Of a DNA stretch of 64,000 bases, positions 1 through 13,010 are shown one piece after another. Each line of letters begins with the position of its first letter. Position 1 is the first letter of the stretch. Source of the stretch: an uncultured Candidatus Binatia bacterium (GTDB lineage: Bacteria > Desulfobacterota > Binatia > Bin18); contig OZ251505.1 of NCBI GenBank assembly GCA_965242795.1, positions 3,265,587 through 3,329,586 on the forward strand, in the 5' to 3' direction. The notes under the pieces are model-generated. The model was given only the letters and a program-made list of their open reading frames with translations, was not told the origin of the DNA and searched no databases. Made by a program: the position numbers and the translations under genes.

Positions 1-1073
1 TTGCAGACGACGATCGCGTGGCGGGGACGGTGTTCGTCCACGTAGGCCCGAAGCGCCCTGACGTCTCCCGACCGGACGTTGGCGCCGCCTTTCACCTCGA
101 TCGCCACCGCGCCGTCGCGCCCCAGAACGAAGTCGCATTCCAATCCGGACTTGGTGCGCCAGAACCGCACCGGGACGTCCCGCTCGCGATAGGTTCGCCA
201 CGCCAGCAGTTCCATCAGCACCAGATGTTCCAGCGCACGGCCGAACTCCGGTCCCGCGGCCCGTGCGACCCGCCGTCCGATCACGTGTCCGGCGATGCCC
301 ACGTCGAACAGATAGAACTTCGGCGCGCGGGTGATGACCGCCCGGGAGCGGCGGCGGCTGAACGGTTCCACGAACACGCCGAGCAGGGTATCGACGAGAA
401 TCTGAAAGTACTCGCGGACGGTCTTGGAATCCACGCCGCAGTCCCTGGCGATGTTGCTGTAGTTCACCAACTCCCCGTGGCAGAACGCCAGCGCGTCGAA
501 GAACCGCGCGAACGCGGCCACGTTCCGCGTCAGTCCTTCGTCGAACACCTCCTCCTTCAGATAATCCTGGACGTAGCCCGCCAACGCGCGCCGATGCTGT
601 GCCGCATCGTAATGCGCCGGGATCAGCCCCCGGTTCAGCGCCTTCAGCAAATCGAAGGCCGGGATTTCCGGCCACGTCAGCGGATGCAGGCCGAAACGCC
701 ACGCCCGCCCGCCGAGCAGGTTCGCCTGCCCGCGCTTCAACTTCCGGGCGCTCGACCCGCACAGCACGAAGCGCAGGCCGGCGTTTTCGATCAGCCGATG
801 CACCTCGTCCAGAATCGCCGGCGCTTTCTGCACCTCATCGATGACGACGGGATGGGCGCGCGTGGCGGAATCCAACGCCTGCACCCGTTCCCGGAAGACC
901 CACGGCGCCCGGGTCCATTCCAACAACAACCGGGTGTCGAGCAGATCGAAATGCGCGGAACGCGGAAACAGCCGGCGCAGCAACGTCGATTTGCCGGTTT
1001 TGCGCGGCCCCCACAGAAAGGCCGACTGGCCCGCGGGAAGGTCGAGACGAAGCGTGCGGTCATACTCTTCCAT
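1..1073 (-). CDS. AAA+ ATPase, DUF4143/COG1373 family (partial; C-terminus lies beyond the window start)
   Basis: Reverse-strand translation starts MEEYDRTLRLDLPAGQSAFLWGPRKTGKSTLLRRLFP (Walker A GPRKTGKST) and continues through a DUF4143-like C-terminal region (…FWRTKSGLECDFVLG…IEVKGG…). ATG at 1071-1073. The listed + ORF 18..1283 is its antisense artefact. Confidence 0.75.
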   Translation of the reverse strand, partial: MEEYDRTLRLDLPAGQSAFLWGPRKTGKSTLLRRLFPRSAHFDLLDTRLLLEWTRAPWVFRERVQALDSATRAHPVVIDEVQKAPAILDEVHRLIENAGLRFVLCGSSARKLKRGQANLLGGRAWRFGLHPLTWPEIPAFDLLKALNRGLIPAHYDAAQHRRALAGYVQDYLKEEVFDEGLTRNVAAFARFFDALAFCHGELVNYSNIARDCGVDSKTVREYFQILVDTLLGVFVEPFSRRRSRAVITRAPKFYLFDVGIAGHVIGRRVARAAGPEFGRALEHLVLMELLAWRTYRERDVPVRFWRTKSGLECDFVLGRDGAVAIEVKGGANVRSGDVRALRAYVDEHRPRHAIVVC

Positions 1074-1493: not shown

Positions 1494-3320
1494 ATGCGCT
1501 GCTCTCTGTTGGACGCCATAGGCGGCTGCGCTACAGTCGCCGGCGTGTCCGCTTCCCCCCCATCCGCCGCCCCGAATGCGACGCGGCGGCTGAGTGCGCT
1601 GCTTGGCCGCTTCGCCCGATTGTCGCCGTTCGTCAAGCCGTATTTCGGACGCCTGGGGCTCGTCTTTCTGCTGTCTTCGTTCGGCGCGGTGCTCGGGCTG
1701 CTGTGGCCGCTGTTTACGAAGATCCTCATCGACGACGTCCTGCTGGCGCGCAACCTGCCGCTGCTGTTCGCGTTGAGCGGGCTGATGGTCGGCGCGACGC
1801 TGCTCGGCTATGGCGTGGGCGCAGTCAATCGCTACGTCTATACCCGCGTGACGGCGCGCGTCCTGTTCACCCTGCGCCAACACCTGTTCGCCCACGTCCA
1901 GAAATTGTCGTTGCGCTTCCACACGCGGACGCGCGTCGGCGACGTGCTGACGCGCCTGAACGCCGACATCGCCGACATCCAGGCCGTCCTGACCGACGCG
2001 GCGTTCACGTTTGCGACCAACCTGTTCGTGCTGTGCGCCAGCGTCGGGTTTCTCGTGTGGCTGGAGTGGCGGCTGTTTCTGGTGAGCCTGGCGCTAGTTC
2101 CCCTCCAGATTTACGGCATCCGCAAAGTCCAGCCGCGGCTGGTGGCCGCCACGCGTCGCGTCCGCGAGTTGAACGCCTCGATTTCGTCGTTTCTGGTCGA
2201 GTCGCTGTCGGCCATCAAATTCGTCAAGCAGTTCGGGGCCGAGGCCGTCCAACTCGACCGGCTGGCGCGGCTGGGGCGCGAATTCGTCCCCACCGTCACC
2301 CGCTACGAAATGGTCGGCTACGTCGGCAGCACGACCACCGGCGCGGCGTCGTTTCTGGGTGGGGCGCTGGTCACCGTGTACGGCGGGTATCTGGTCATCG
2401 ACGGCCAACTCAGCATCGGCAGCCTGGTCGCGTTCACGGCCTACCAGTCGCGCGCCCTGGGTCCGATACAGGTGCTGATGGACCTGTATCTGCGCATCGA
2501 ACGGGCGGGGGTGTCGGTCGACCGGGTCTTCGAATTCCTGGACCTGGGCCGCGACTATCGGGAACCGGCCGGCGGCACGCGCCGCCTCGCCGCAGTGCGC
2601 GGGGAAGTGGAATTCCGCGACGTGACGTTCGGCTATCGGGCCGACGAGGCGGTTCTGCGCGGGCTGAGTTTTCGGGTGCCGGCCGGCCAGCGGGTGACGG
2701 TCCTCGGGCCGAGCGGGGTCGGCAAATCCACGCTGGTCGATCTGCTGATCCGGCTGTACGCCCCCGATGCAGGAAGTATCCTTCTGGACGGCCACGACGT
2801 GCGCCACCTCGATACGACTTGGTTGCGGCAACAGGTGGTGGTGCTCGGCCACGAGCCGGTGTTGTTCCACGCGTCGATGTTCGAGAACGTCCGCTACGCC
2901 AGCCCGCAGGCGTCCCGTGGCGAGGTCGCCCGCGCGCTCGAAACGGTCGGCTTGCATGACTACGTCACGAGCCTGCCGGACGGCTCCGACACCCTGCTCG
3001 GAGAACGCGGGGCACGGCTGTCCGCGGGGCAGCGTCAGCGGGTCGCCCTCGCCCGCGCGCTGCTCAAGAATCCGCGCGTGCTGGTGCTGGACGAAGCCGT
3101 CTCCGGCCTCGACGCCGAAAGCGAAGCCGACCTGCGCGCCGCGCTCGCCGCGGTCATGCGCGACCGGACCACGCTGGCCGTGACCCACCGTCTGACCTCG
3201 CTCCGGCCCGATGATGCGGTGCTCGTGCTGACGAACGGTCGCGCCGCGTGGCAGGGGTGCTACCGCGACTTGGCGCAACGCCCCGAACTCCTACGCGGAA
3301 TCCCCGCCGGAGCCATCTGA
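1494..3320 (+). CDS. qhpF: ABC transporter, fused permease/ATP-binding type I exporter (MsbA-like); QhpF-like candidate exporter for the QHNDH gamma subunit
   Basis: Six-TM N-terminal domain. Walker A GPSGVGKST, ABC signature LSAGQRQRVALARAL, Walker B VLVLDEAVSGLD. Lies beside a QhpE-like subtilisin and the qhpADCB genes. The start may be a later in-frame ATG. Confidence 0.8.
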   Translation: MRCSLLDAIGGCATVAGVSASPPSAAPNATRRLSALLGRFARLSPFVKPYFGRLGLVFLLSSFGAVLGLLWPLFTKILIDDVLLARNLPLLFALSGLMVGATLLGYGVGAVNRYVYTRVTARVLFTLRQHLFAHVQKLSLRFHTRTRVGDVLTRLNADIADIQAVLTDAAFTFATNLFVLCASVGFLVWLEWRLFLVSLALVPLQIYGIRKVQPRLVAATRRVRELNASISSFLVESLSAIKFVKQFGAEAVQLDRLARLGREFVPTVTRYEMVGYVGSTTTGAASFLGGALVTVYGGYLVIDGQLSIGSLVAFTAYQSRALGPIQVLMDLYLRIERAGVSVDRVFEFLDLGRDYREPAGGTRRLAAVRGEVEFRDVTFGYRADEAVLRGLSFRVPAGQRVTVLGPSGVGKSTLVDLLIRLYAPDAGSILLDGHDVRHLDTTWLRQQVVVLGHEPVLFHASMFENVRYASPQASRGEVARALETVGLHDYVTSLPDGSDTLLGERGARLSAGQRQRVALARALLKNPRVLVLDEAVSGLDAESEADLRAALAAVMRDRTTLAVTHRLTSLRPDDAVLVLTNGRAAWQGCYRDLAQRPELLRGIPAGAI

Positions 3321-4355: not shown

Positions 4356-5657
4356 TTACTGAAAAAAGGTGTTCCTCGGACTCTCGGTACAATGCTGGTT
4401 CGCTACAGGCATCAGATCTCCCCCGAAGCCGGTATAGGCCTGCACGGACAGGTCTCGACAATCCTGGGAAACGCTCGAGACGGAACCCGCCTCGATGAAC
4501 ACTTCGCACGTCGTGCGGACCAGCGCTTCTTTTGCCGTCAGACCCGCGGCAACCAGTGCGGCTTCGAAATCGTCGGCAGCGGCTTGCGAGTCGGTCTTCC
4601 CCGGCCAATACGAAAAGATCGTCTTCGGATTGACGACGACCTCCCACGACACCGGGTCCCGGTCGACCGTCTGGCCGCAGAGAAAAAATACGTTGCACGT
4701 CGGGCGGGTCTCGGCGTCGTCCGCCGCTTCCGACCGGTCCAGCGCGCAGTAGAGATGCACGTACGCTTGTTGCGGGGAGAGATTCATCAAGGTCGCGACC
4801 TTCTCCGCTCTCCGAGGACTCGTCTCGGGCTCGGGGGATTCGTCGGACGGTGCGGGTTCGCCTGGCTCGTTCGACGCCCCAGGCCGAGCAGGCGGCGCAG
4901 GTTCGTTCGGTGCCGCGGGTTCGCCCGGAGGATTCGTCCTAGTCTCGTCGGATGTCGTGGGCGGCCCGGGCTCGTTCGGTGTTCCGGGTGCGCTGGGCGT
5001 CTCGGGCTCGTCACGCTCGACGACCACGGCGACGGGTTCGATACGATTGACGGCCATAGCGACAGGATACCATCCGTGACTCCCCCAAAACGCCCGATCC
5101 TCCAGATCGCGGGTCAGCCGAACCGCAATGTAGTACGTCCCGGGGGTCAAGCGGCGCTTGTAGAAGAACGACGTGCCGCCATGCCGTCTCTCATGGTCGG
5201 AAGCAATGGCCGATCCGTTTGCATCGAGAATGGTCGGCTCCACATAGATCCAGGCCACCCCCGCCGGCTTGCCTCTATAGCCCACCCCGGCAGCACTGAT
5301 GAACACCTCGAAAGAGGATGCGCCCGACAGATCGAATCGGAAGAAGTCGACGTCCGTGGTGCACCCTTCTTCAACGAATCCTGTCGCGGAGTACGGCGCC
5401 GAGCCCGACTGCCCGTTGAATCGGGAGAGAAGTCGATCATACGGTCGGCTCTCGGGCTGTAGCGTGGGCGGGATGGTCTGGAACGTCGAGGCAGCGAGAA
5501 CCGTTGCGTCCGCTTGCGCGTTTCCGTGGTCGTCGTTCGCGCATTGTGCCGCGGCCGGGAACTGCCCGATACGCGCCGCGGCCGGAACCGGTTCGATACC
5601 GAGCCACGCGCCCATCACTCCTGCGACGACGAGTGACCGTAATCTTGTATACTGCAT
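4356..5657 (-). CDS. Secreted protein with a Pro-rich repetitive linker (NEPGPP/NEPAPP units) and a pre-peptidase C-terminal (PPC)-like domain
   Basis: N-terminal signal peptide MQYTRLRSLVVAGVMGAWLG…AAA. PPC-like motif DVDFFRFDLSGASSFEV…LTPGTYYIAVR. Low-complexity PEPT-rich segment. Confidence 0.55.
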   Translation of the reverse strand: MQYTRLRSLVVAGVMGAWLGIEPVPAAARIGQFPAAAQCANDDHGNAQADATVLAASTFQTIPPTLQPESRPYDRLLSRFNGQSGSAPYSATGFVEEGCTTDVDFFRFDLSGASSFEVFISAAGVGYRGKPAGVAWIYVEPTILDANGSAIASDHERRHGGTSFFYKRRLTPGTYYIAVRLTRDLEDRAFWGSHGWYPVAMAVNRIEPVAVVVERDEPETPSAPGTPNEPGPPTTSDETRTNPPGEPAAPNEPAPPARPGASNEPGEPAPSDESPEPETSPRRAEKVATLMNLSPQQAYVHLYCALDRSEAADDAETRPTCNVFFLCGQTVDRDPVSWEVVVNPKTIFSYWPGKTDSQAAADDFEAALVAAGLTAKEALVRTTCEVFIEAGSVSSVSQDCRDLSVQAYTGFGGDLMPVANQHCTESPRNTFFQ

Positions 5658-5749
5658 TGTGACTGCTCCCCCCTTCGTGGAACCCGGATGCTCGTATCAG
5701 TTCTTTCACCTGCCTGCTACCTATCCGAAAGGGTATCCCGACTGCGGTA

Positions 5750-5975
5750 GCGATTGCCCAACGGCGGGCGGCTGTGGTGGCGGTGAGGCCGCTTCGAGGA
5801 GGCGACAGGTATGCGCATTCCTGCGTGCGTTCCATTCATGGCGTTCGTGGCGTTGTGGGCCGGCTCGACGATCTGGCCGAGACCGGCCGGCGCCGAACAA
5901 CCGGCCGTGGCGGCGTCCGAGGCCGCGCTTTCGGCGGGGGAGATTCTGGTGCAGAGATCATCAGGCTGCCGTGCA
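5750..5975. repeat. Direct repeat copy 1 (~225 bp, ~85% identical to 8216-8440) covering the qhpA promoter-proximal region and 5' coding end
   Basis: ttgcccaacggcgggcggctgtggtggcggtgaggccgcttcgaggaggcgacaggtatgcgcattcctgcgtgcgttccattcatggcgttcgtggcg… versus the near-identical stretch at 8216 onward. Confidence 0.7.
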
Positions 5976-6005
5976 CCGGAGGAGGCGGTCGAGCGCTGGA
6001 TGTGA
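5811..6005 (+). pseudogene. Truncated duplicate of the qhpA 5' end (signal peptide plus first CxxCH-like region, then divergence and stop)
   Basis: MRIPACVPFMAFVALWAG…AGEIL.QR.SGC matches the QhpA N-terminus (8273..) for ~55 aa. The ~50 bp upstream, including RBS gaggaggcgacaggtATG, is also duplicated. The reading frame decays after the CSGC motif. Confidence 0.6.
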
Positions 6006-6049
6006 CGCACGCTCGGCGTGCACCCTCCCGCCCACCAGCTTAACTTTGA

Positions 6050-8200
6050 GGCGAGCTACGGCTGGTTAAGTTTGCATAGCAGACGGATGCAGTACACGGA
6101 ACATAGGATGCCCCTCTCTATTTACGGAAAGGAAGATCCACTTCCCAAAGGCGACCTTCATGGGTGTATTGGCCGGATACAATTCGCCTGATGTCGTACG
6201 CTGGAAGTGGGACGACCAATATACACTTGTTGTCAAATGCCATACCGCAGGAAGGGAATTTGAAAACCAAATCGTCAAAGTTGTAGGATCTGTACCGCGA
6301 CGGTAAGGCTGCGTGGTCAGCTGGATAAACATTTAGAAAGAATCCCGGCTTTTTGTCGGATAGGACACACGGTTCCCTAACGTACACTAACGTTCTATTG
6401 TGGAGATAAATATCGAAATGAGAGTGTGCTAAGGGTTTTCTAGAGAGAACTGCCTGGTATATGTTTTGAAAATTGACTGCGTGAAACCGAGCATAGGAAT
6501 TTGCTAAATGCAACAGACCGATACCGCCTACAACGACGAAAAAGGACACAATAAGCTGAGGCGTCCGAACAAAATTCGTCATCTGATAGGTGTGTAGAAA
6601 ATTTAATATTCGCTGCCGAACGCCCGTTAATAAGCATCGACGAATTGAACTCACGATTATTTCGCTGCTTATGGCGGACTGCGGCCCGAGTCGGCGACTT
6701 ATCTTATGTGACGTTGATACTTGAATCCAGAACAGCTCTAGAGAATATAAAAAAAGGAAAAGGGCAAGAAGATATTCGTCCCACTCCTCCAACCTGGCTC
6801 CTTTACGAATCAATTGCCCAATGAATGTGGTTGTTACGAAAAAACCACTCGTTACACAGGCAATGAATAGCTTATGCTTTTTAAAAATCAGCGCAAAGAG
6901 AAAAAGAAGGAGTATGCCTATTTTGTCCGGGGTGAAAAGGAATCTTACCCAGAGAGAAAGTAGGCCAAGACTATCGATCGGATTGTTCTCGTTGATGGCA
7001 ACCCCAGAAAAATTCGCTACCAGAAACCCCAATATTAGGAAAATAGATGGGAGAGGAATTCCGAAGAACGTATTTTTTTTGCCAAAGAAAGCGAGGATGG
7101 TCATGAGAACCATGATCCGCATTCCATCTACTCTGACGAGGGTATGAATTTTATGTAGTACCCTGATATTGTGTAAATTAGTTTCATTCTGGGTATTTAT
7201 GTCCGCCCAAAAATCGGGCATCGGGTAGTTGAGAATACGGTGCCCCCAACTGATTTCTTCTCCGGTGGCATAGAAAAGCGCTATGCCCCCTAAGATGTAG
7301 AGCCGTCGCTGAAAGGGCCTTTGTTCCATTCGGGCGGTGGCGAATAAGAAGATGCTCCCCAGAAACAGCCAGACCGATGTCAGATTTTCGACCCAAGAAT
7401 CTTCTTTGGCTGAATACAGGAAGCAACATGGGTCGCTATATATAAGATAGTGAAAGAGGACAGAATTCAAACACAAGCAAAGGTAAGCGAGTGTAGGGAT
7501 CGTGTTTGCTCGGAGAGTAAAAGCAGAAAATTGGCCATGATCTTTTTCCATCTTTTGACCCTTTGTGGATCTGCTTCGGGTCTTTCAACGTCCGTTTTCT
7601 CGGCCTGAAATTGTCGGAGCCGACCGTCGCCACTATCGGGGGCTACCCTCGTTCCCCGAAGCTACATGTATCGTCTGTGTATGGCAACTGGCGCGGAACC
7701 CCAGGACGGCTCCCAATGTCTGTTGAACCGGCAACCGTCATGCACTACCGGTGCGATTGCCTCGTTCTGAGCGGCTGTGGTCAGGGTCAAGCCACTTTAA
7801 GGAGTCACCGGGCATGCGTATGCTAGTGTGCTTTCCGTTTGTGGTGTCGGAGAAGGGCTAGGCTGATGGTCCGACCGAGACCGTCCCAGAGCCGAAGCAA
7901 CAGGTTATGGCAGCCCGAGTTCGTCTTCCGGGCATCGGAGATTCTGGAGGGAAGATGTTCAGGCTGGTCAAGGCGGGGCTGGCGCGGGTTCTTCTCTCAA
8001 GCGGATGCCGTACGGACCCCGGCTGTGCTATTCTTTTCCTGCTGATAGAGGGAACTCTACTTCTTAGAGACGACCCTCGGAGATGAACTGGTCAGATACG
8101 GTCCACTAATATCGTACTTTGGAAGTGACACAACCGCTACTTAAGCGAACCAAGGCAAACTTCTAGTTCCCTTTCAATGTTCATCAGGCGGCGCCTGCGG
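6050..8200. other. Low-GC (~40%) insertion island between the duplicated qhpA 5' fragments
   Basis: Abrupt compositional shift relative to ~65% GC flanks. Carries one large membrane-protein gene and ~650 bp of non-coding sequence, and is bounded by the 225-bp direct repeats. Confidence 0.6.
6118..7551 (-). CDS. Polytopic integral membrane protein (at least 10 predicted TM helices), function unknown; encoded on the low-GC island
   Basis: 477-aa ORF, AT-rich codon usage, long hydrophobic stretches (…LFLGSIFLFATA…, …ILGFLVANFSGVAI…, …LLALFLFLYSLELFW…). No recognisable catalytic motif. Confidence 0.55.
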   Translation of the reverse strand: MEKDHGQFSAFTLRANTIPTLAYLCLCLNSVLFHYLIYSDPCCFLYSAKEDSWVENLTSVWLFLGSIFLFATARMEQRPFQRRLYILGGIALFYATGEEISWGHRILNYPMPDFWADINTQNETNLHNIRVLHKIHTLVRVDGMRIMVLMTILAFFGKKNTFFGIPLPSIFLILGFLVANFSGVAINENNPIDSLGLLSLWVRFLFTPDKIGILLLFLFALIFKKHKLFIACVTSGFFVTTTFIGQLIRKGARLEEWDEYLLALFLFLYSLELFWIQVSTSHKISRRLGPQSAISSEIIVSSIRRCLLTGVRQRILNFLHTYQMTNFVRTPQLIVSFFVVVGGIGLLHLANSYARFHAVNFQNIYQAVLSRKPLAHSHFDIYLHNRTLVYVREPCVLSDKKPGFFLNVYPADHAALPSRYRSYNFDDLVFKFPSCGMAFDNKCILVVPLPAYDIRRIVSGQYTHEGRLWEVDLPFRK

Positions 8201-8215
8201 GATCATTGGAAGAGG

Positions 8216-8440
8216 TTGCCCAACAGCGGGCGGCTATGGTAGCGGTGAGGCCGCTTTGAGGAGGCGACAGGTATGCGCATTCCAGCGTGCGTTCCATTTA
8301 TGGCGTTCGTGGTGTTGTGGGTCGGCTTGGTGATCCGGCCGGGATCGGCCGGCGCCGAACAACAGGCCGCGACGGCGTCCGATGTCGCGCTTCCGGCGGG
8401 GGAGATTCTGGAGCAGCGCTGTTCGGGCTGCCATGCGTCG
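8216..8440. repeat. Direct repeat copy 2 (functional qhpA upstream region and 5' end)
   Basis: See copy 1 at 5750-5975. Confidence 0.7.
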
Positions 8441-9949
8441 GAACAGGAGGGCGGGCCGCTGGACGCGATTGCGGAACAGCGCAAGACGCCCGAAGGCTGG
8501 AGCATGACGCTCAGCCGTATGGCGCGGACCCACGGCGTGGAGTTGCAGGCAGGCGAGGCGCGCATCCTGGTCAAGTATCTGAGCGACCGCTACGGGCTGG
8601 CGCCCGCGGAGGTCGAGCCCTACCGCTTCATTCTGGAGCAGCGCAACATTCGTACTTCGGAGGAGGTTCCCGCACCGCTGAAAGCCGGCTGCGTACAGTG
8701 CCATACGTACGCGCGAACCGCGTTGCAGTACCGCACCGAAGATGCGTGGCTGCGGCTGGCGGATACCAAAGTCGCCATCATGGCGAATATCGGCAGCGAG
8801 ACGGCTTCGGCCGGGTTGCTGCGCGACTATTGGTACGACGATGCGAAGAACAACGCGTTTCCGTATCTTGCTGAGCATCAACCGTTCGAGACCGAAGCGT
8901 GGACGGCGTGGCAGACCAAGAAGAAGCCGGACTATGCCGGTCGCTGGGTGGTAGTCGGCCACGATCCCGGCCGCGGCGGGGAATACACCGGGACGCTGCG
9001 TCTCGACGCGCTCGGGAACGACCGCTACCGCGGCGAATTTTCGTATGCCTTCGCGGACGGCTCGCAACTGACGGGCACGACGACCGGCACGGTGTACACC
9101 GGCTTTCAGTGGCGTGGGGTGGCGCGGACGGACTCCGATGACGGAGACGACGCCCCACAGCGCGAGATCATGTTCGCGTCGGAAGACGGCGGCACGCTGG
9201 TCGGGCGGCGCTTGCTGACCAATTTCGGCGACCTCGGCATGGACGAGACGTGGTACCGCCGTACAGACCGTGCGCGGCTGCTCGCGGTGAATCCCCGGAG
9301 CGTTCGGACGGGAAGCACCCAGACCGTCAGGCTTTTCGGGACGGGTTTTTCCGAGACGTTGCTGTCGGACGGAGGGCTGACGTTCGGCGATGGGGTCACG
9401 GTGTCGTCCGCGCGGATCGAGGGCGACACCGCGGTCGTCGCCGAGGTGTCGGTCGAGGCCGGCGCGACGGAGGGGCTACGCAAGGTCGGGATCGGCGGCG
9501 CGGACGGGCAAGGCCAAGTCGCAGTGTACGACACGGTGGATTACGTCCGGGTTTTCCCGGAGCGCGGGTTCGCGCGCCCGGGCGGGATTCGGACCCCGAA
9601 GATTTTTCAGCAGTACGAGGCCGTCGGCTACGCCAACGGGCCGGACGATAAGAAAGGAACGGACGACGACGTGCGGCTGGGCCGGATCTCACCGATCCGC
9701 TGGAATCTCGAAGAGTACGTCAAACGCCCGAACGACGACGACGTCCGCTACGTCGGTTCCATCGATCAGCACGGCCTGTTTCTGCCCAACGTGGACGGGC
9801 CGAACGCGAACCGGCATCTGATGGAGGGCAACGTCGGCGACGTGTGGGTCGAGGCGTGGTACGCGCCCGACGGCGCGAAACGGCCGATGGGCGCGCGGGC
9901 GCATCTGCTTGTCATGCCGGCCAAATTCATCTTTCCCCCGATAGAATAG
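8273..9949 (+). CDS. qhpA: Quinohemoprotein amine dehydrogenase alpha subunit (N-terminal di-haem cytochrome c domain plus beta-rich domains)
   Basis: Signal peptide, then two haem c sites CSGCH and CVQCH within the first 150 aa. 558 aa in total. The next gene starts 2 nt after the stop (TAG…ATG). Followed by rSAM/SPASM (qhpD), a small Cys/Trp-rich gamma subunit (qhpC) and a beta-propeller protein (qhpB). Confidence 0.85.
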   Translation: MRIPACVPFMAFVVLWVGLVIRPGSAGAEQQAATASDVALPAGEILEQRCSGCHASEQEGGPLDAIAEQRKTPEGWSMTLSRMARTHGVELQAGEARILVKYLSDRYGLAPAEVEPYRFILEQRNIRTSEEVPAPLKAGCVQCHTYARTALQYRTEDAWLRLADTKVAIMANIGSETASAGLLRDYWYDDAKNNAFPYLAEHQPFETEAWTAWQTKKKPDYAGRWVVVGHDPGRGGEYTGTLRLDALGNDRYRGEFSYAFADGSQLTGTTTGTVYTGFQWRGVARTDSDDGDDAPQREIMFASEDGGTLVGRRLLTNFGDLGMDETWYRRTDRARLLAVNPRSVRTGSTQTVRLFGTGFSETLLSDGGLTFGDGVTVSSARIEGDTAVVAEVSVEAGATEGLRKVGIGGADGQGQVAVYDTVDYVRVFPERGFARPGGIRTPKIFQQYEAVGYANGPDDKKGTDDDVRLGRISPIRWNLEEYVKRPNDDDVRYVGSIDQHGLFLPNVDGPNANRHLMEGNVGDVWVEAWYAPDGAKRPMGARAHLLVMPAKFIFPPIE

Positions 9950-9950
9950 C

Positions 9951-11465
9951 GTGGTATGCGGTACTCGGGCAGAGACGCCGATGGAACTCCACTTCCGCGC
10001 CGAGAACGCGCATACGGTCCCCCAGACCGGCTTGTCGGGGAACGACGCCGCGCCCGACATTCTGGTCGCCGCGAAAAGCATGTCCATGTTCGTCATGGAT
10101 TCCGTCTCGGAAGCCGTTCTCGGCTACATGCGGTCGCATCCGCATTCCAGCGAAGCGGCACTGAGCGAAGCGCTGTCGCCCCGATTCTCGACGGACTCGG
10201 TCAGCGAGACCGTCCGGGAATTGCTCGCCCTGGAAATCCTGCACTCTCACGACCGGCCTGCGTCGCCGGCCCCGCTTCCCACGCTCGACGTCGAGCGCTT
10301 CCCGGTCACGTCACTGGTCGTGAACGTGGCCAATAAATGCAACCTGCACTGCACCTATTGTTACGAGCCGGACGGGGCCAAGTACGGACCGTCGCCGGTG
10401 CAGATGGATTGGACGACGGCGCGCGCCAGCGTCGATTTTCTGTTCGGGAAGTCGGGGCGCAGCAAAGAAGTGAACCTGATCTTCTTCGGCGGGGAGGCGC
10501 TGTTGAATTTTCCGCTCATGCGCCGCGTGGTGGCGTATGCCGAGGACAAGGCGGCGGCCGAAGGCAAGACCGTCGATTTTTCGCTCACCACCAACGGCAC
10601 GCTGTTGACCGACGAGGTGATCGATTTCTTCCAGACCCACCGCTTCGGCGTGACGGTCAGCATCGACGGGCCTAAGGACCTGCACGACAAGCGGCGCGTC
10701 TTCCTGAACGCGCGCGGTGGGCAGGTCGGGTCGTACGAGATGCTGCGGCCGCGGCTGGAACGATTGTTCGAACGCTACACCGCCCGACCGGTGGTGGCGC
10801 GCATCACGGTCGCCAGGGACGCCGTCGACGTGGTCCGCACGTACGAGCATCTGACCGAACTCGGCTTTTTCGAGGTCGGCTTTTCACCGGTCACCGCGCA
10901 GCCCGGAGCCGAGTACGGCTTGGAACCCGCGGATTTGCGCGACCTGTTGGATCAGTTCCGCGCATTGGGCGACGTCTACGTCGAACGCGCGCTCGACGGC
11001 CGCTATACCGGCTTCTCCAACCTGAGCACGCTGCTGACGGACATCCACGTGGGAACGAACAAGCTGTTCCCGTGCGGCGCCGGTCTGGGCCTGCTGGACG
11101 TGGACGGCAACGGCGACGTGTATCTATGCCACCGCTTCCCGGGCACAGACGAGCAGAAATACGGCAGCGTGCAGGACGGTCTGGACTACGACCGCCTCAA
11201 CACGTTCATCAACGGCGCCCATGTCGGGAACAAGCCCGTGTGTCAGACGTGCTGGATTCGCGGACTGTGCGGCGGCGGCTGTTACCACGAAGCCCAGACC
11301 GAGTTCGGCGACGCTACCCTGCCGAACCTGCACTACTGCGACTTCCTGCGCGCCTGGACCGAGTACGGTATCGGCGTGTACATGCAGCTTCAGGCGCGTG
11401 TGCCCGGCTTCATCGAGCGATACGTGGTACGCGGGCGGGGCGACGCGCCGAAGGAACTCACGTAG
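9951..11465 (+). CDS. qhpD: Radical SAM/SPASM-domain peptide maturase, QhpD (thioether Cys-to-Asp/Glu crosslinking enzyme for QhpC)
   Basis: CxxxCxxC radical-SAM motif VANKCNLHCTYCYE. C-terminal SPASM Cys cluster (CQTCWIRGLCGGGCYHE; CDFLRAW). Sits between qhpA and qhpC as in Paracoccus/Pseudomonas qhp operons. Confidence 0.85.
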   Translation: MVCGTRAETPMELHFRAENAHTVPQTGLSGNDAAPDILVAAKSMSMFVMDSVSEAVLGYMRSHPHSSEAALSEALSPRFSTDSVSETVRELLALEILHSHDRPASPAPLPTLDVERFPVTSLVVNVANKCNLHCTYCYEPDGAKYGPSPVQMDWTTARASVDFLFGKSGRSKEVNLIFFGGEALLNFPLMRRVVAYAEDKAAAEGKTVDFSLTTNGTLLTDEVIDFFQTHRFGVTVSIDGPKDLHDKRRVFLNARGGQVGSYEMLRPRLERLFERYTARPVVARITVARDAVDVVRTYEHLTELGFFEVGFSPVTAQPGAEYGLEPADLRDLLDQFRALGDVYVERALDGRYTGFSNLSTLLTDIHVGTNKLFPCGAGLGLLDVDGNGDVYLCHRFPGTDEQKYGSVQDGLDYDRLNTFINGAHVGNKPVCQTCWIRGLCGGGCYHEAQTEFGDATLPNLHYCDFLRAWTEYGIGVYMQLQARVPGFIERYVVRGRGDAPKELT

Positions 11466-11504
11466 ACGAGCGCGGTAAAGGCGCACGGAATCGAGGAGAA
11501 GGCC

Positions 11505-11864
11505 ATGAAACACCTCACAGCAGCCAATCGGAAGGCGCGGGCCGTGAGCGCCGCGGTCGACGCCCAGGAGGAGGGGCGCCCCGCGGCCACGCCGAAGGTG
11601 GTCGAAGACGTCATCGGCATGGCACAGCCCATCGGCTGTACGACCATCTTCAACCCCGGCTGGGAAGCGAACCCGTGGGGCGGCGCGAGCAGCATGTGCG
11701 CACCCATGGAAGCCGACCTGCTGAGTTGCGCCAACCTGTGCTGGTGGCCGGCGCAGGTGCCGGACAGCCTGCAGAACGCCCCGGAGTGGGCCAAGGCGTG
11801 CTCCGGTATGAATCAGGAAGACTGGCGCAACCTGGACGTGGTCTTTCCCAAGCTCGACGATTGA
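11505..11864 (+). CDS. qhpC: QHNDH gamma subunit precursor QhpC (leader peptide plus Cys/Trp-rich core bearing the CTQ cofactor and thioether crosslinks)
   Basis: 119 aa. Basic/Ala-rich leader, then a core with five Cys, Trp and multiple Asp/Glu (…GCTTIFNPGWEANPWGG…MCAPMEADLLSCANLCWWPAQ…). RBS gaggagaaggccATG. Its position between the rSAM gene and the beta-propeller gene is diagnostic. Confidence 0.8.
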   Translation: MKHLTAANRKARAVSAAVDAQEEGRPAATPKVVEDVIGMAQPIGCTTIFNPGWEANPWGGASSMCAPMEADLLSCANLCWWPAQVPDSLQNAPEWAKACSGMNQEDWRNLDVVFPKLDD

Positions 11865-11900
11865 TCCGGGCGCCGCTCGGAATCTCCGCTGGATCCGGCA

Positions 11901-13010
11901 ATGCTGCAATTCGGACACGCCCGGCGCCGTTCGACGCCATGGGCCGGCGGTTTGCTGCTGGCCTGCGCCCTGTTCGCCGTGCCGCGGACGGCCTGGGCGA
12001 AGTGGTATCTGCTCGCCAGCACCCACCCCAACAATCTGGTCGTCGTGGACACCGAGACGGATGCGGTCGTCCAGGACATCGCGTTGGAGGGCCGCGGCCC
12101 GGCGTTGTACATCGCGCCCAATCCCGCGCAGCCGCAGTTCGCGTACGTCGTCAACAACCTGGCCCGAAGCGTGGCGATGGTCGATCTCGACGAGGGCAAG
12201 CAGGTCAGGAGTTTCGACCTGTCGAGCGACGGCCAACTCGTGCGGACGATGGCCATTGACGTGAACACGCAGGGGACGCGGCTGTTCGTCCATGAAATGC
12301 CGATCGCCCAGGACCTCGGTCGTTACGCCGCACAGGAAAACCGCATCCGGGTCATCGACCTGAAGACCAACGAAACGGTCACCACGTTTCCCGCGCCGCG
12401 GCAAGTCATGTCGTTGGCTTCATCTCAGGACGGGGAACGCCTGTACGCGTTCAGCGTCGGCCAGGACATCTTCGTGTACGACGCCGAGACCGGCGCCCCG
12501 CTCGACACCATCCCGCTCGCCAACCGCAACATCAGCGGCATCGCCCGGACCGACGGCCTGCCGCTCGGCGGCACCTACCAGGAGAGCGGCCATCTGGTCT
12601 CGTTCGGCACTTTCACCACGGATTCGATCACCAAACAGATCACGCTGGGAATCGGGTCGCTCGACCTCACGCAGAAAGAGCCGGAGTTGAAGATCGTGGA
12701 ATTGCAACCCTTCGTCGAAGGCGATTATCTGCTCACCGGCACGCTGTCGCCCCACACGGGCAAGGCGTATTTCGGGTACAACAGTTTGTGGCGGGTGGAC
12801 CCCGAAACCCGCCACATCGAAAAGAAGGTGCCCCTGTCGAACACGTACTTCGCGCCGCTGGTGCACCCCGAGGGCAAGAAAATCTACTGCGGCAGCAATT
12901 GGCACGACGTGGCGGTGTTCGACGCCGAGTCGCTCGAACTGCTCACCAAGGTCGAACTCGGCCATTCGCAGACCGGCGGGGTGAGCGTGTTGCGATTCGT
13001 CGACCGCTGA
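11901..13010 (+). CDS. qhpB: QHNDH beta subunit QhpB (seven-bladed beta-propeller), signal peptide present
   Basis: N-terminal signal peptide (…LLLACALFAVPRTAWA), repetitive beta-strand-rich sequence typical of a propeller, ~369 aa. Directly follows qhpC. Confidence 0.75.
   Translation: MLQFGHARRRSTPWAGGLLLACALFAVPRTAWAKWYLLASTHPNNLVVVDTETDAVVQDIALEGRGPALYIAPNPAQPQFAYVVNNLARSVAMVDLDEGKQVRSFDLSSDGQLVRTMAIDVNTQGTRLFVHEMPIAQDLGRYAAQENRIRVIDLKTNETVTTFPAPRQVMSLASSQDGERLYAFSVGQDIFVYDAETGAPLDTIPLANRNISGIARTDGLPLGGTYQESGHLVSFGTFTTDSITKQITLGIGSLDLTQKEPELKIVELQPFVEGDYLLTGTLSPHTGKAYFGYNSLWRVDPETRHIEKKVPLSNTYFAPLVHPEGKKIYCGSNWHDVAVFDAESLELLTKVELGHSQTGGVSVLRFVDR

What the first reader, a model, noticed from the sequence alone, without database searches (positions are those of the whole stretch)
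5750..8440. 225-bp direct duplication of the qhpA promoter/5' end bracketing a 2.1-kb AT-rich insertion
The functional qhpA (8273) is preceded by a second, truncated copy of its own RBS, start codon, signal peptide and first Cys motif (5811-6005, ~85% identity over ~225 bp). Between the copies lies ~40%-GC DNA encoding a 477-aa polytopic membrane protein (minus strand) and ~650 bp of non-coding sequence. The truncated copy could be the remnant of a second qhpA paralogue deleted by the insertion. Alternatively it could be a duplication generated during insertion. Either way the native qhpA promoter context has been rearranged. The remnant could act as a decoy or regulatory leader.
Basis: seen in the sequence. 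Interest (0 to 1): 0.6.

Follow-up and report, generated by a model that had tools for sequence, protein, structure and literature searches.

The report
Decayed qhpA-fragment / membrane-gene tandem array
The duplicated start of the amine-dehydrogenase gene qhpA is real, but it is one of three copies left by an old, partly eroded tandem array of about 2-kb units (a qhpA start fragment plus an AT-rich membrane-protein gene) shared by a clade of uncultured Binatia bacteria: a relic of recombination with no sign of a regulatory role.

Summary
The repeat is real: 5746-6000 matches 8208-8463 at 85% over 256 nt (E 3.5e-79). The 477-aa ORF (M1) is a working gene (dN/dS 0.23-0.32). It is syntenic in five related Candidatus Binatia lineages, and all of them carry orthologues of copies A, B and C. 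All copies share the same end point in qhpA (about +190, just past the first CXXCH haem motif) and the same flanking sequence. So one founding event was followed by tandem amplification of a ~2-kb unit, then lineage-specific deletions. The window's layout is itself a deletion derivative. A genome of the same species as L002 (L008, about 97% identical flanks) has the empty arrangement, with the 436-aa gene 162 bp from qhpA. The silent copies have broken, non-conserved reading frames and evolve at about the neutral rate or faster. They have still exchanged sequence patches with the expressed copy. There is no transposase, integrase, terminal inverted repeat, Rfam family or assembly artefact. Verdict: a real and tidy but ordinary case of recombination-driven locus evolution. 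Low to moderate interest.

The parts
1494..3320 (+). qhpF-like ABC exporter (context, qhp cluster)
   Evidence: Pfam ABC_membrane + ABC_tran; syntenic in relatives; role of qhpF per PMC7876137
3413..4174 (-). qhpE-like subtilisin-type (S8) protease (context)
   Evidence: Pfam Peptidase_S8, E 1.2e-15; syntenic
4356..5657 (-). 436-aa-class gene of unknown function ('U436'); left flank of the array
   Evidence: No Pfam/NCBIfam family; conserved at 72-94% in relatives and directly adjacent to qhpA in the empty-site genome L008
5658..5745 (.). Native U436/qhpA intergenic region, now in front of the silent copy A
   Evidence: Collinear with the L008 intergenic region and with the L004 A0 unit (0.65-0.89 identity)
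5746..6000 (+). Copy A: silent qhpA fragment (-65..+190; ORF 5811-6005, 64 aa; haem motif mutated to SSGCR); mosaic of the 'A0' slot type with a central patch matching L001's expressed copy
   Evidence: 85% to copy C; translation; mosaic sites; A0-type tail
6001..6117 (.). Post-junction sequence / 3' flank of M1; a unit-to-unit recombination crossover lies at about 6010-6030
   Evidence: The same post-junction sequence follows every A0/A copy; identity switches from the A0 unit to the A/M1 unit at about 6010-6030
6118..7551 (-). M1: 477-aa polytopic membrane protein, 44% GC. The membrane domain has no known family; the C-terminal ~115-aa domain is shared with PMT_2 (GT-C) glycosyltransferases
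   Evidence: Full-length homologues at 81-93%; dN/dS 0.23-0.32; hhalign probability 99.9% for the C-terminal domain only; AF2 model with multiple TM helices plus a beta-rich C-terminal domain, pLDDT 65
7552..7743 (.). M1 upstream region (probable M1 promoter); homologous to the upstream regions of the other M cassettes
   Evidence: 87.5-95% conserved among genomes; alignment of M upstream regions
7744..7966 (+). Copy B: oldest silent qhpA fragment (ATG 7815, stop after 15 codons, frameshifts)
   Evidence: 68% to C, 67% to A; B copies form one orthologous clade, 86-94% between genomes; neutral-like conservation
7967..8137 (-). Post-junction sequence plus decayed 3' remnant of a second M-type gene (delta-M3; 'SDQFISEGRL*EVEFPL')
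   Evidence: Minus-strand translation resembles the M1 C-terminus; L001 retains the gene at this slot; the deletion junction is shared by the window, L002, L004 and L006
8138..8207 (.). Remnant of the M3 upstream region, now the sequence immediately upstream of the qhpA leader (candidate present-day qhpA promoter region)
   Evidence: 93-96% identical in L002/L004/L006; homologous to the M2/M3 upstream regions
8208..8463 (+). Copy C: the expressed copy of the repeat (leader, RBS, signal peptide, first CSGCH)
8273..9949 (+). qhpA, di-haem alpha subunit of quinohemoprotein amine dehydrogenase
   Evidence: Four QHNDH alpha Pfam domains; CXXCH at residues 50 and 140
9951..13010 (+). qhpD (radical SAM, 9951-11465), qhpC (gamma subunit, 11505-11864), qhpB (beta-propeller, 11901-13010)
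   Evidence: Pfam; operon composition per PMC7876137

Best explanation
The region between the 436-aa gene and qhpA is the eroded remainder of a tandem array. Each ~2.0-kb unit consists of (i) a qhpA fragment from about -65 to about +190 (leader, RBS, signal peptide, first haem motif), (ii) a ~110-nt flank, (iii) an AT-rich membrane-protein gene (M) on the opposite strand, and (iv) that gene's upstream region. The window reads: U436 <- native intergenic -> copy A | M1 | copy B | remnant of M3 | copy C = the real qhpA. Shown: all copies share one break point and one flank, so there was a single founding event that put an M gene into the 5' end of qhpA while duplicating -65..+190, which left an intact qhpA downstream. 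Shown: whole units are homologous to each other, unit number differs between related genomes (0 to 3), and the window's copy A is a hybrid made by recombination between two units. Hence the array grew and shrank by unequal homologous recombination between the repeats. Shown: silent copies have exchanged patches with the expressed copy. Inferred: the founding event was most simply a single-crossover (Campbell-type) integration of a circularised fragment that already carried M next to a qhpA 5' end. A replication-associated duplication would give the same result. Inferred: copies A and B have no function of their own; they are pseudogene scars. M1 is a functional passenger gene, probably involved in envelope glycans. 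qhpA is now driven from sequence that came with the cassette.
For: Three copies in the window. Orthologues of A, B and C in L001-L007, with a fourth copy in L004/5 and L006/7. The same break in qhpA ('CCGCTGGA', about +190) and the same post-junction sequence in all A0/A copies; B shares both sides with a ~65-nt deletion spanning the junction. Upstream regions of all M cassettes are homologous; A-to-B spacing is 2003 nt. M2 (L004) and M3 (L001) are related but sit in different slots. M3 is present in L001 and deleted with an identical junction in the window, L002, L004 and L006. Window copy A follows the L004 A0 unit up to about 6010, then the A/M1 unit; L002 has a different deletion. Empty site in L008: U436 and qhpA are 162 bp apart, with flanks 96.5% and 97.9% identical to L002. 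Divergence there is confined to the repeat segment: 33/147 mismatches in codons 1-50 against 42/1524 in the rest, dS 0.30 against 0.075. Mosaic: +49..+91 has 6 crossed and 0 positional sites, and the ends are positional. Silent copies: ORFs of 15-119 aa, non-conserved; B is 86.5-89% identical between genomes, against 77-93% at third codon positions. M1 dN/dS is 0.23-0.32. No Rfam hit; no excess of promoter- or terminator-like sites.
Against: The founding mechanism is not observable. No donor genome with M natively next to qhpA was found, so the Campbell-type step is inference. M1 and M2/M3 are only about 30% identical in protein, which needs either long neutral decay of the pseudogenised units (roughly compatible with 65% nt identity between B and C) or later replacement of gene bodies. 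L008 could be either the ancestral state or an imported or collapsed allele; its 5' segment matches none of the L002 copies well (70-80%). RBS and start codons persist in most silent copies, so some transcription or translation from them cannot be excluded. No expression data are available.
Confidence: 0.72

Rival explanations
1. Repeated, independent integration of mobile M-gene cassettes that use the qhpA 5' end as an attachment site (site-specific or homology-guided). The array would then be a stack of separate acquisitions rather than amplification of one unit.
For: Presence/absence polymorphism within one species, with the repeat segment itself being the diverged block. Related cassettes occupy different slots. 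M paralogues are only about 30% identical. M-like genes are AT-rich and occur in variable polysaccharide loci elsewhere.
Against: All units share one junction and homologous flanks on both sides. No integrase or transposase lies among the neighbours. There are no terminal inverted repeats (longest is 8 nt). M is absent from phage and viral collections, and the plasmid hits are only weak partial matches. Distant M homologues are never next to qhpA.
Confidence: 0.1
2. The silent copies are functional, either as decoy or leader promoters that modulate qhpA or M1 expression (for example antisense transcription from copy A into M1), or as silent donor cassettes for programmed variation.
For: Shine-Dalgarno and start codons are retained in most copies. 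There has been patchwise exchange between silent and expressed copies, and window copy A differs from L001's expressed copy at only 2 sites across -3..+145. Copy A faces M1 convergently.
Against: Reading frames are not conserved, and there are lineage-specific deletions (44 nt in L002/L004/L006 copy A). Substitution rates are neutral or faster. There is no Rfam family and no conservation of the leader beyond this clade. The region exchanged in qhpA is a cleaved signal peptide and linker, a poor target for adaptive variation. L008 does without any of it.
Confidence: 0.07
3. Copy A is the remnant of a second, once-complete qhpA paralogue whose body was deleted by the insertion.
For: Many other Binatia do carry a second qhpA paralogue (57-59% identity) a few kb away.
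Against: Those paralogues lie downstream of qhpADCB, not upstream. All copies here end at the same nucleotide and share the flank. The left boundary is also common, about -65 to -71. The empty-site genome has one qhpA next to U436. Copies are 65-92% identical to the resident gene, not about 58%.
Confidence: 0.03
4. Assembly artefact (chimeric join or duplicated contig edge).
For: The window appears to derive from a metagenome assembly. There is a sharp GC change.
Against: The same order of copies and genes is found in seven other contigs from ENA, JGI and Logan assemblies of different samples. The copies differ at 15-35% of positions, so they are not collapsible repeats. M1 is under purifying selection in place.
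Confidence: 0.01

Closest known systems
Tandem segmental duplication arrays maintained and eroded by unequal homologous recombination (gene amplification and collapse in bacteria)
   Same: Head-to-tail units share one novel junction. Copy number varies among close relatives. Hybrid units arise from unit-to-unit crossover. Extra gene copies are pseudogenised. Patchy gene conversion occurs between repeats.
   Different: The unit boundary lies inside an essential operon gene. Each unit therefore carries a promoter-proximal gene fragment, and the array preserves one intact qhpA at its end. The units are old (65-85% identity), not recent amplifications.
Campbell-type (single-crossover) integration, as with suicide plasmids or integrative elements that carry a copy of the target gene's end
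   Same: It yields a truncated copy (with RBS and 5' coding region), then the inserted DNA, then an intact gene preceded by the element-borne copy. It also yields direct repeats equal in length to the shared segment, and reversible loss by recombination between the repeats.
   Different: No vector, integrase or att core was identified. The circular intermediate is hypothetical. The insert is a single chromosomal-type gene.
Variable, low-GC surface-polysaccharide gene cassettes (wzy/gtr-like genes in O-antigen or EPS loci) exchanged through conserved flanks
   Same: M-like genes are 10-17 GC points below their genomes, occur as divergent paralogues, and sit beside rml-type sugar genes, GT4 glycosyltransferases and Wzy_C/PMT_2 genes in other genomes. 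Their C-terminal domain is shared with PMT_2 glycosyltransferases.
   Different: Here the cassette sits inside an amine-dehydrogenase (qhp) cluster, not a glycan locus. The membrane domain matches no Wzy, GT-C or Gtr family. The function is untested.
Expression-site / silent-cassette systems (e.g. pilE/pilS-type gene conversion; recalled from general knowledge)
   Same: One expressed gene plus upstream truncated copies that donate sequence patches.
   Different: The exchanged part is a signal peptide and linker. The silent copies decay neutrally. There are only two or three copies, and there is no evidence of high-frequency switching.

Membership tests
Quinohemoprotein amine dehydrogenase alpha subunit (QhpA), for the gene at copy C | Haem-binding domain plus domains II, III and IV of the QHNDH alpha subunit | tested here: met
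   PF09098 (1e-43), PF14930, PF09099 and PF09100 are all above the gathering score
Quinohemoprotein amine dehydrogenase alpha subunit (QhpA), for the gene at copy C | Two c-type haem motifs (CXXCH), and operon partners qhpD, qhpC, qhpB, qhpE and qhpF | tested here: met
   CSGCH at residue 50 and CVQCH at residue 140; radical SAM, gamma subunit, beta-propeller, S8 protease and ABC exporter are adjacent; operon definition from PMC7876137
Tandem segmental duplication array | All units share the same novel junction and are homologous along their whole length | tested here: met
   Junction and flank alignment; alignment of M upstream regions; M paralogues detected by tblastn in extra units
Tandem segmental duplication array | Copy-number variation and hybrid units among close relatives | tested here: met
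   0 units (L008) to 3 units or unit remnants (L004/L006/L001); hybrid copy A in the window
Transposon / insertion-sequence insertion with target-site duplication | Short target duplication, terminal inverted repeats, transposase gene | tested here: not met
   The duplication is about 255 nt. The longest inverted match between the ends of 6001-8207 is 8 nt. No transposase lies in the array or among its neighbours.
Site-specific integrative element (phage or genomic island with att duplication) | Integrase or recombinase gene on the element; element also found in mobile form | tested here: not met
   No integrase lies between the repeats or nearby. There is no M homologue in the phage or viral collections.
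Site-specific integrative element (phage or genomic island with att duplication) | Identical core sequence at both ends where strand exchange occurs | tested here: inconclusive
   The longest exact A/C identity is 26 nt, around the RBS and ATG. Given the age of the array and the later gene conversion, this says little.
GT-C glycosyltransferase (PMT_2 / ArnT-like), for protein M | Match of the membrane domain to PF13231/PF02366 or to a GT-C fold | tested here: not met
   No Pfam or NCBIfam match even at E<=5. hhalign aligns only the C-terminal 116 residues. No PDB fold or sequence match. The model is of moderate quality (pLDDT 65), so the fold test is weak.
Structured RNA leader / riboswitch | Match to a curated RNA family, or conservation of the leader across distant homologues | tested here: not met
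   No Rfam hit at E<=1 in 5000-9000. The leader is not conserved in Binatia whose QhpA is about 70% identical; these have their own TTGACT-N17-TATAGAAT layout.
Silent-cassette gene-conversion variation system | High-frequency, within-population switching of the expressed copy | not testable with these tools
   This needs read-level population data. Only an evolutionary-scale mosaic was seen.

The most novel reading that the evidence does not exclude
The qhpA 5' segment serves as a portable homology handle. Once an M gene is flanked by two copies, the unit can be excised as a circle, stacked, swapped between strains and re-inserted into naive qhpA loci by host homologous recombination alone. 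That would make it a recombinase-free cassette system diversifying an envelope-related membrane protein, with the silent qhpA fragments also feeding sequence back into the expressed gene.
Probability: 0.1. Interest if true: 0.6.

Novelty: new member of a known kind. Interest (0 to 1): 0.3.

Why it matters
This is a clean natural example of how a horizontally acquired gene can lodge inside the start of an operon gene without destroying it, and of how the resulting direct repeats then drive long-term amplification, deletion, allele replacement and patchy gene conversion. For annotation, it means the 64-aa ORF at 5811-6005 and the short ORF at 7815 are qhpA pseudogene fragments and not genes. It also means the sequence now upstream of qhpA is not the ancestral promoter region. 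It flags an uncharacterised, AT-rich membrane-protein family whose C-terminal domain is shared with GT-C glycosyltransferases. It does not reveal a new type of system.

Tried and rejected
- Exact look-up of the window's QhpA: not on record.
- Rfam scan of 5000-9000 at E<=1: nothing.
- Sigma-70 promoter and intrinsic-terminator scans: counts no higher than in shuffles, and nothing at the repeat boundaries.
- M against Pfam, NCBIfam, PADLOC and PHROGs: no family.
- Metagenome scan anchored on U436: only two distant, irrelevant loci, so no population survey was possible.
- Viral contigs and phage records: no M relatives.
- Plasmids: weak N-terminal matches to a Roseovarius hypothetical protein in an uninformative context.
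- Literature search for Binatia plus amine dehydrogenase: no papers.
- Rejected after consideration: transposon target duplication (too long, no inverted repeats, no transposase); second-paralogue remnant (common end points, empty site); assembly artefact (eight concordant contigs); low GC as proof of recent arrival (M-like genes are AT-rich relative to their genomes everywhere).
Full report
**Observation**

The reported duplication exists at the stated coordinates. Window 5746-6000 (copy A) and 8208-8463 (copy C) align at 85.2% over 256 nt (blastn E 3.5e-79; 249 nt at 85% by the repeat finder).

Copy C contains the true start of qhpA (8273-9949). That gene matches all four Pfam domains of the quinohemoprotein amine dehydrogenase alpha subunit and has two CXXCH motifs, at residues 50 and 140.

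Downstream lie qhpD (radical SAM), qhpC (gamma subunit) and qhpB (beta-propeller). Upstream lie a qhpE-like S8 protease and a qhpF-like ABC exporter. This is the gene set described for qhp operons in PMC7876137.

Copy A keeps the Shine-Dalgarno sequence, the ATG and the signal peptide, but reads SSGCR where qhpA has CSGCH, and it stops after 64 codons. GC drops to 38-47% across 6100-7500, against 60-70% outside.

There is a third copy of the same segment, B (7744-7966). It is 68% identical to C and 67% to A (E 1e-8 and 7e-6). It has an ATG at 7815, a stop after 15 codons, and frameshifts.

Between B and C, the minus strand at about 8040-8137 still translates to 'SDQFISEGRL*EVEFPL'. This resembles the C-terminus of the 477-aa protein ('SGQYTHEGRLWEVDLPF'), so it is the 3' remnant of a second gene of the same family. 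No other copies occur in the 64-kb window.

**The 477-aa ORF (M1) is a real gene**

- It has full-length homologues at 81-93% identity on long contigs.
- It evolves under purifying selection: dN/dS 0.23-0.32, against 0.17-0.18 for qhpA.
- It matches no Pfam, NCBIfam, PADLOC or PHROGs family.
- An AlphaFold model (pLDDT 65) shows multiple transmembrane helices and a beta-rich C-terminal domain. It has no significant PDB match.
- Profile-profile comparison shows that only the C-terminal ~116 residues are shared with PMT_2-type (GT-C) glycosyltransferases (probability 99.9%).
- Distant homologues (33-36% identity) occur as tandem paralogues beside dTDP-sugar genes or in an EPS-type locus with GT4 and Wzy_C/PMT_2 genes, never beside qhpA.
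- M-like genes sit 10-17 GC points below their flanks in those genomes too. Low GC is therefore a family trait and not a sign of recent arrival.

**Related genomes**

The organism belongs to Candidatus Binatia. In seven contigs from four further lineages (L001-L007; ENA, JGI and Logan assemblies), M1 sits in the same place, between qhpA and the 436-aa gene / S8 protease / ABC exporter. Every lineage has orthologues of copies A, B and C. L004/5 and L006/7 have a fourth copy (A0) next to the 436-aa gene.

Extra units carry further M paralogues, about 30% identical to M1 and split into two ORFs, so probably pseudogenes:
- M2 lies between A0 and A in L004/5, with remnants in L006/7.
- M3 lies between B and C in L001.

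The window, L002, L004 and L006 share one deletion junction that removed most of M3.

**One founding junction, whole-unit duplication**

Aligning the ends of all copies gives three results:
- Every A0 and A copy breaks off at the same position in qhpA ('CCGCTGGA', about +190, ten codons past the first haem motif).
- Each is followed by the same ~110-nt sequence leading into the 3' end of an M gene.
- B copies share the sequence on both sides, with a ~65-nt deletion spanning the junction.

The upstream regions of M1, M2 and M3 are also homologous to each other. The left boundary of the repeat is common, at about -65 to -71. The A-to-B period is 2003 nt.

So the array descends from a single founding event and grew by duplication of a ~2-kb unit: qhpA fragment + flank + M + M upstream region. 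The B copies form one old orthologous clade, 86-94% identical between genomes and 55-65% identical to all other copies.

**The window's own layout is derived**

Copy A follows the L004 A0 unit through the native intergenic region and the fragment's tail (0.80-0.93 identity at 5922-6010). From about 6030 it follows the L004 A/M1 unit (0.88-0.97). This is the signature of a unit-to-unit crossover that deleted M2 and one repeat. L002 lost A0 and M2 by a different deletion.

The inferred ancestor is U436-[A0-M2]-[A-M1]-[B-M3]-C.qhpA.

**Empty site**

L008 is a 4.1-Mb chromosome-level Binatia assembly. It has the 436-aa gene and qhpA 162 bp apart, with no M gene and a single copy of the segment.

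Its flanks are 96.5% (9.2 kb) and 97.9% (6.1 kb) identical to L002, so the two belong to one species. Their divergence is concentrated in the repeat segment:
- Identity is 62-88% from -76 to +140, then 94-100%.
- Codons 1-50 have 33/147 mismatches (dS 0.30); the other 507 codons have 42/1524 (dS 0.075).

The locus therefore exists as filled and empty alleles that are exchanged through the flanking genes. L008's segment matches none of the L002 copies closely (70-80%). It is not a recent collapse of an L002-type array, and whether it is ancestral remains open.

**Exchange between silent and expressed copies**

Among window A, window C, L001 A and L001 C:
- Informative sites from +49 to +91 are all 'crossed' (window A = L001 C and window C = L001 A; 6 crossed against 0 positional).
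- Sites upstream of the ATG and beyond +139 are positional (15 in total).
- Across -3..+145, window A differs from L001's expressed copy at only two sites. That is closer than the orthologous DNA around it, which is about 92% identical.

The 85% identity between A and C is thus not a simple clock.

**Are the silent copies functional?**

- Their ORFs range from 15 to 119 aa, with ATG or GTG starts and unrelated ends. L002, L004 and L006 copy A share a 44-nt deletion. A0-type copies have lost the first haem cysteine.
- B is 86.5-89% identical between genomes, comparable to third codon positions (77-93%). A is 61-64% identical to the A slot of L002, L004 and L006.
- The best-conserved non-coding blocks are the M1 upstream region (87.5-95%) and the 70 bp at 8138-8207 (93-96% in three genomes). 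These are the likely present-day promoters of M1 and qhpA (inference).
- There is no Rfam match, and consensus promoter and terminator scans find nothing beyond shuffles.
- The leader is not conserved in Binatia whose QhpA is about 70% identical. Those genomes share their own TTGACT-N17-TATAGAAT layout.

I conclude that A and B are scars.

**Mechanism**

Shown:
- a single junction;
- unit-level homology;
- copy-number variation;
- hybrid units;
- mosaic patches.

All of these point to homologous recombination between the repeats as the engine of later change.

Inferred: the founding step. A ~255-nt duplication with no inverted repeats (longest 8 nt), no transposase and no integrase nearby does not fit transposition or known site-specific integration.

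The simplest route is a single-crossover integration of a circularised fragment carrying M, its upstream region and a qhpA 5' end. That would reproduce exactly the order truncated copy - insert - intact gene. A replication-associated duplication cannot be excluded, and no donor arrangement was found.

**Artefact?**

Eight concordant contigs from independent assemblies, copies that differ at 15-35% of positions, and purifying selection on M1 in place together exclude an assembly error.

**Verdict**

It is wrong on the paralogue-remnant and decoy ideas.

The structure is an old, eroding tandem array produced and reshaped by ordinary recombination. It is a new instance of a known kind of event, in an uncultured lineage. 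Interest 0.3.

The most novel reading not excluded is a recombinase-free cassette system that uses the qhpA fragment as a homology handle. I give it about 10% probability.

Noticed in passing
window 11466-11504; L001, L002/3, L006/7, L008 between qhpD and qhpC; L004/5 remnant: Relatives carry a restriction-modification pair (AccI-type endonuclease + Eco57I-like methyltransferase) inserted between qhpD and qhpC, inside the qhp operon. It is 99.7% identical between L002 and L008, and L004/5 keep only a methyltransferase C-terminal remnant. The window has just 39 bp between qhpD and qhpC and no RM genes. This is a second insertion/deletion polymorphism in the same operon.
   Followed up: partly
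L063:8001-12363: Three tandem M-like genes about 90% identical to each other at the DNA level, in a 4.14-Mb genome and not near qhpA, followed by an AAA_14/DUF4143 ATPase gene. The same ATPase family sits at window 3-1073 (minus strand, 98% identical to L001's) a few kb from M1. The co-occurrence may be chance.
   Followed up: partly
window 6118-6460 (C-terminal ~115 aa of M1); proteins P0014-P0022: A conserved C-terminal domain (FDVY..LVYV[KR]EPC..FFLH..P.D..LP..FDN..F.F..G..FD.KC..LP.Y.I..I.TGQ..G..W) is shared between the M family and 640-780-aa PMT_2-type glycosyltransferases, but has no Pfam model.
   Followed up: partly
window 4356-5657; L008 8950-9217 vs L002(rc) 8611-8878: The 436-aa gene is only about 72% identical in protein between the window and L002/L008, while its neighbours are about 88%. 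It shows off-register self-matches about 96 nt apart, suggesting an internal tandem repeat of variable register. It belongs to no known family.
   Followed up: no
L010, L011, L013, L014, L017, L019, L021-L023, L028, L029, L032, L033 (second QhpA hit 3.5-6 kb downstream); L025:17272-17862: Many Binatia carry a second qhpA paralogue (56-60% identity) a few kb downstream of qhpAD. In L025 it is internally deleted, with residues 31-107 joined to 438-558.
   Followed up: no
L009-L026, about 57-87 nt upstream of the predicted qhpA start: Distant Binatia share a well-conserved promoter-like TTGACT-N17-TATAGAAT element and a ~55-nt leader upstream of qhpA. This is absent from the window's clade.
   Followed up: no
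L016, L027, L035, L038, L042, L046, L056, L057 (record titles): Several public MAG records titled 'uncultured Enterobacteriaceae' or 'Klebsiella pneumoniae' encode Binatia-like QhpA/QhpD (54-70% identity to the window). They are probably mislabelled or contaminated bins.
   Followed up: no
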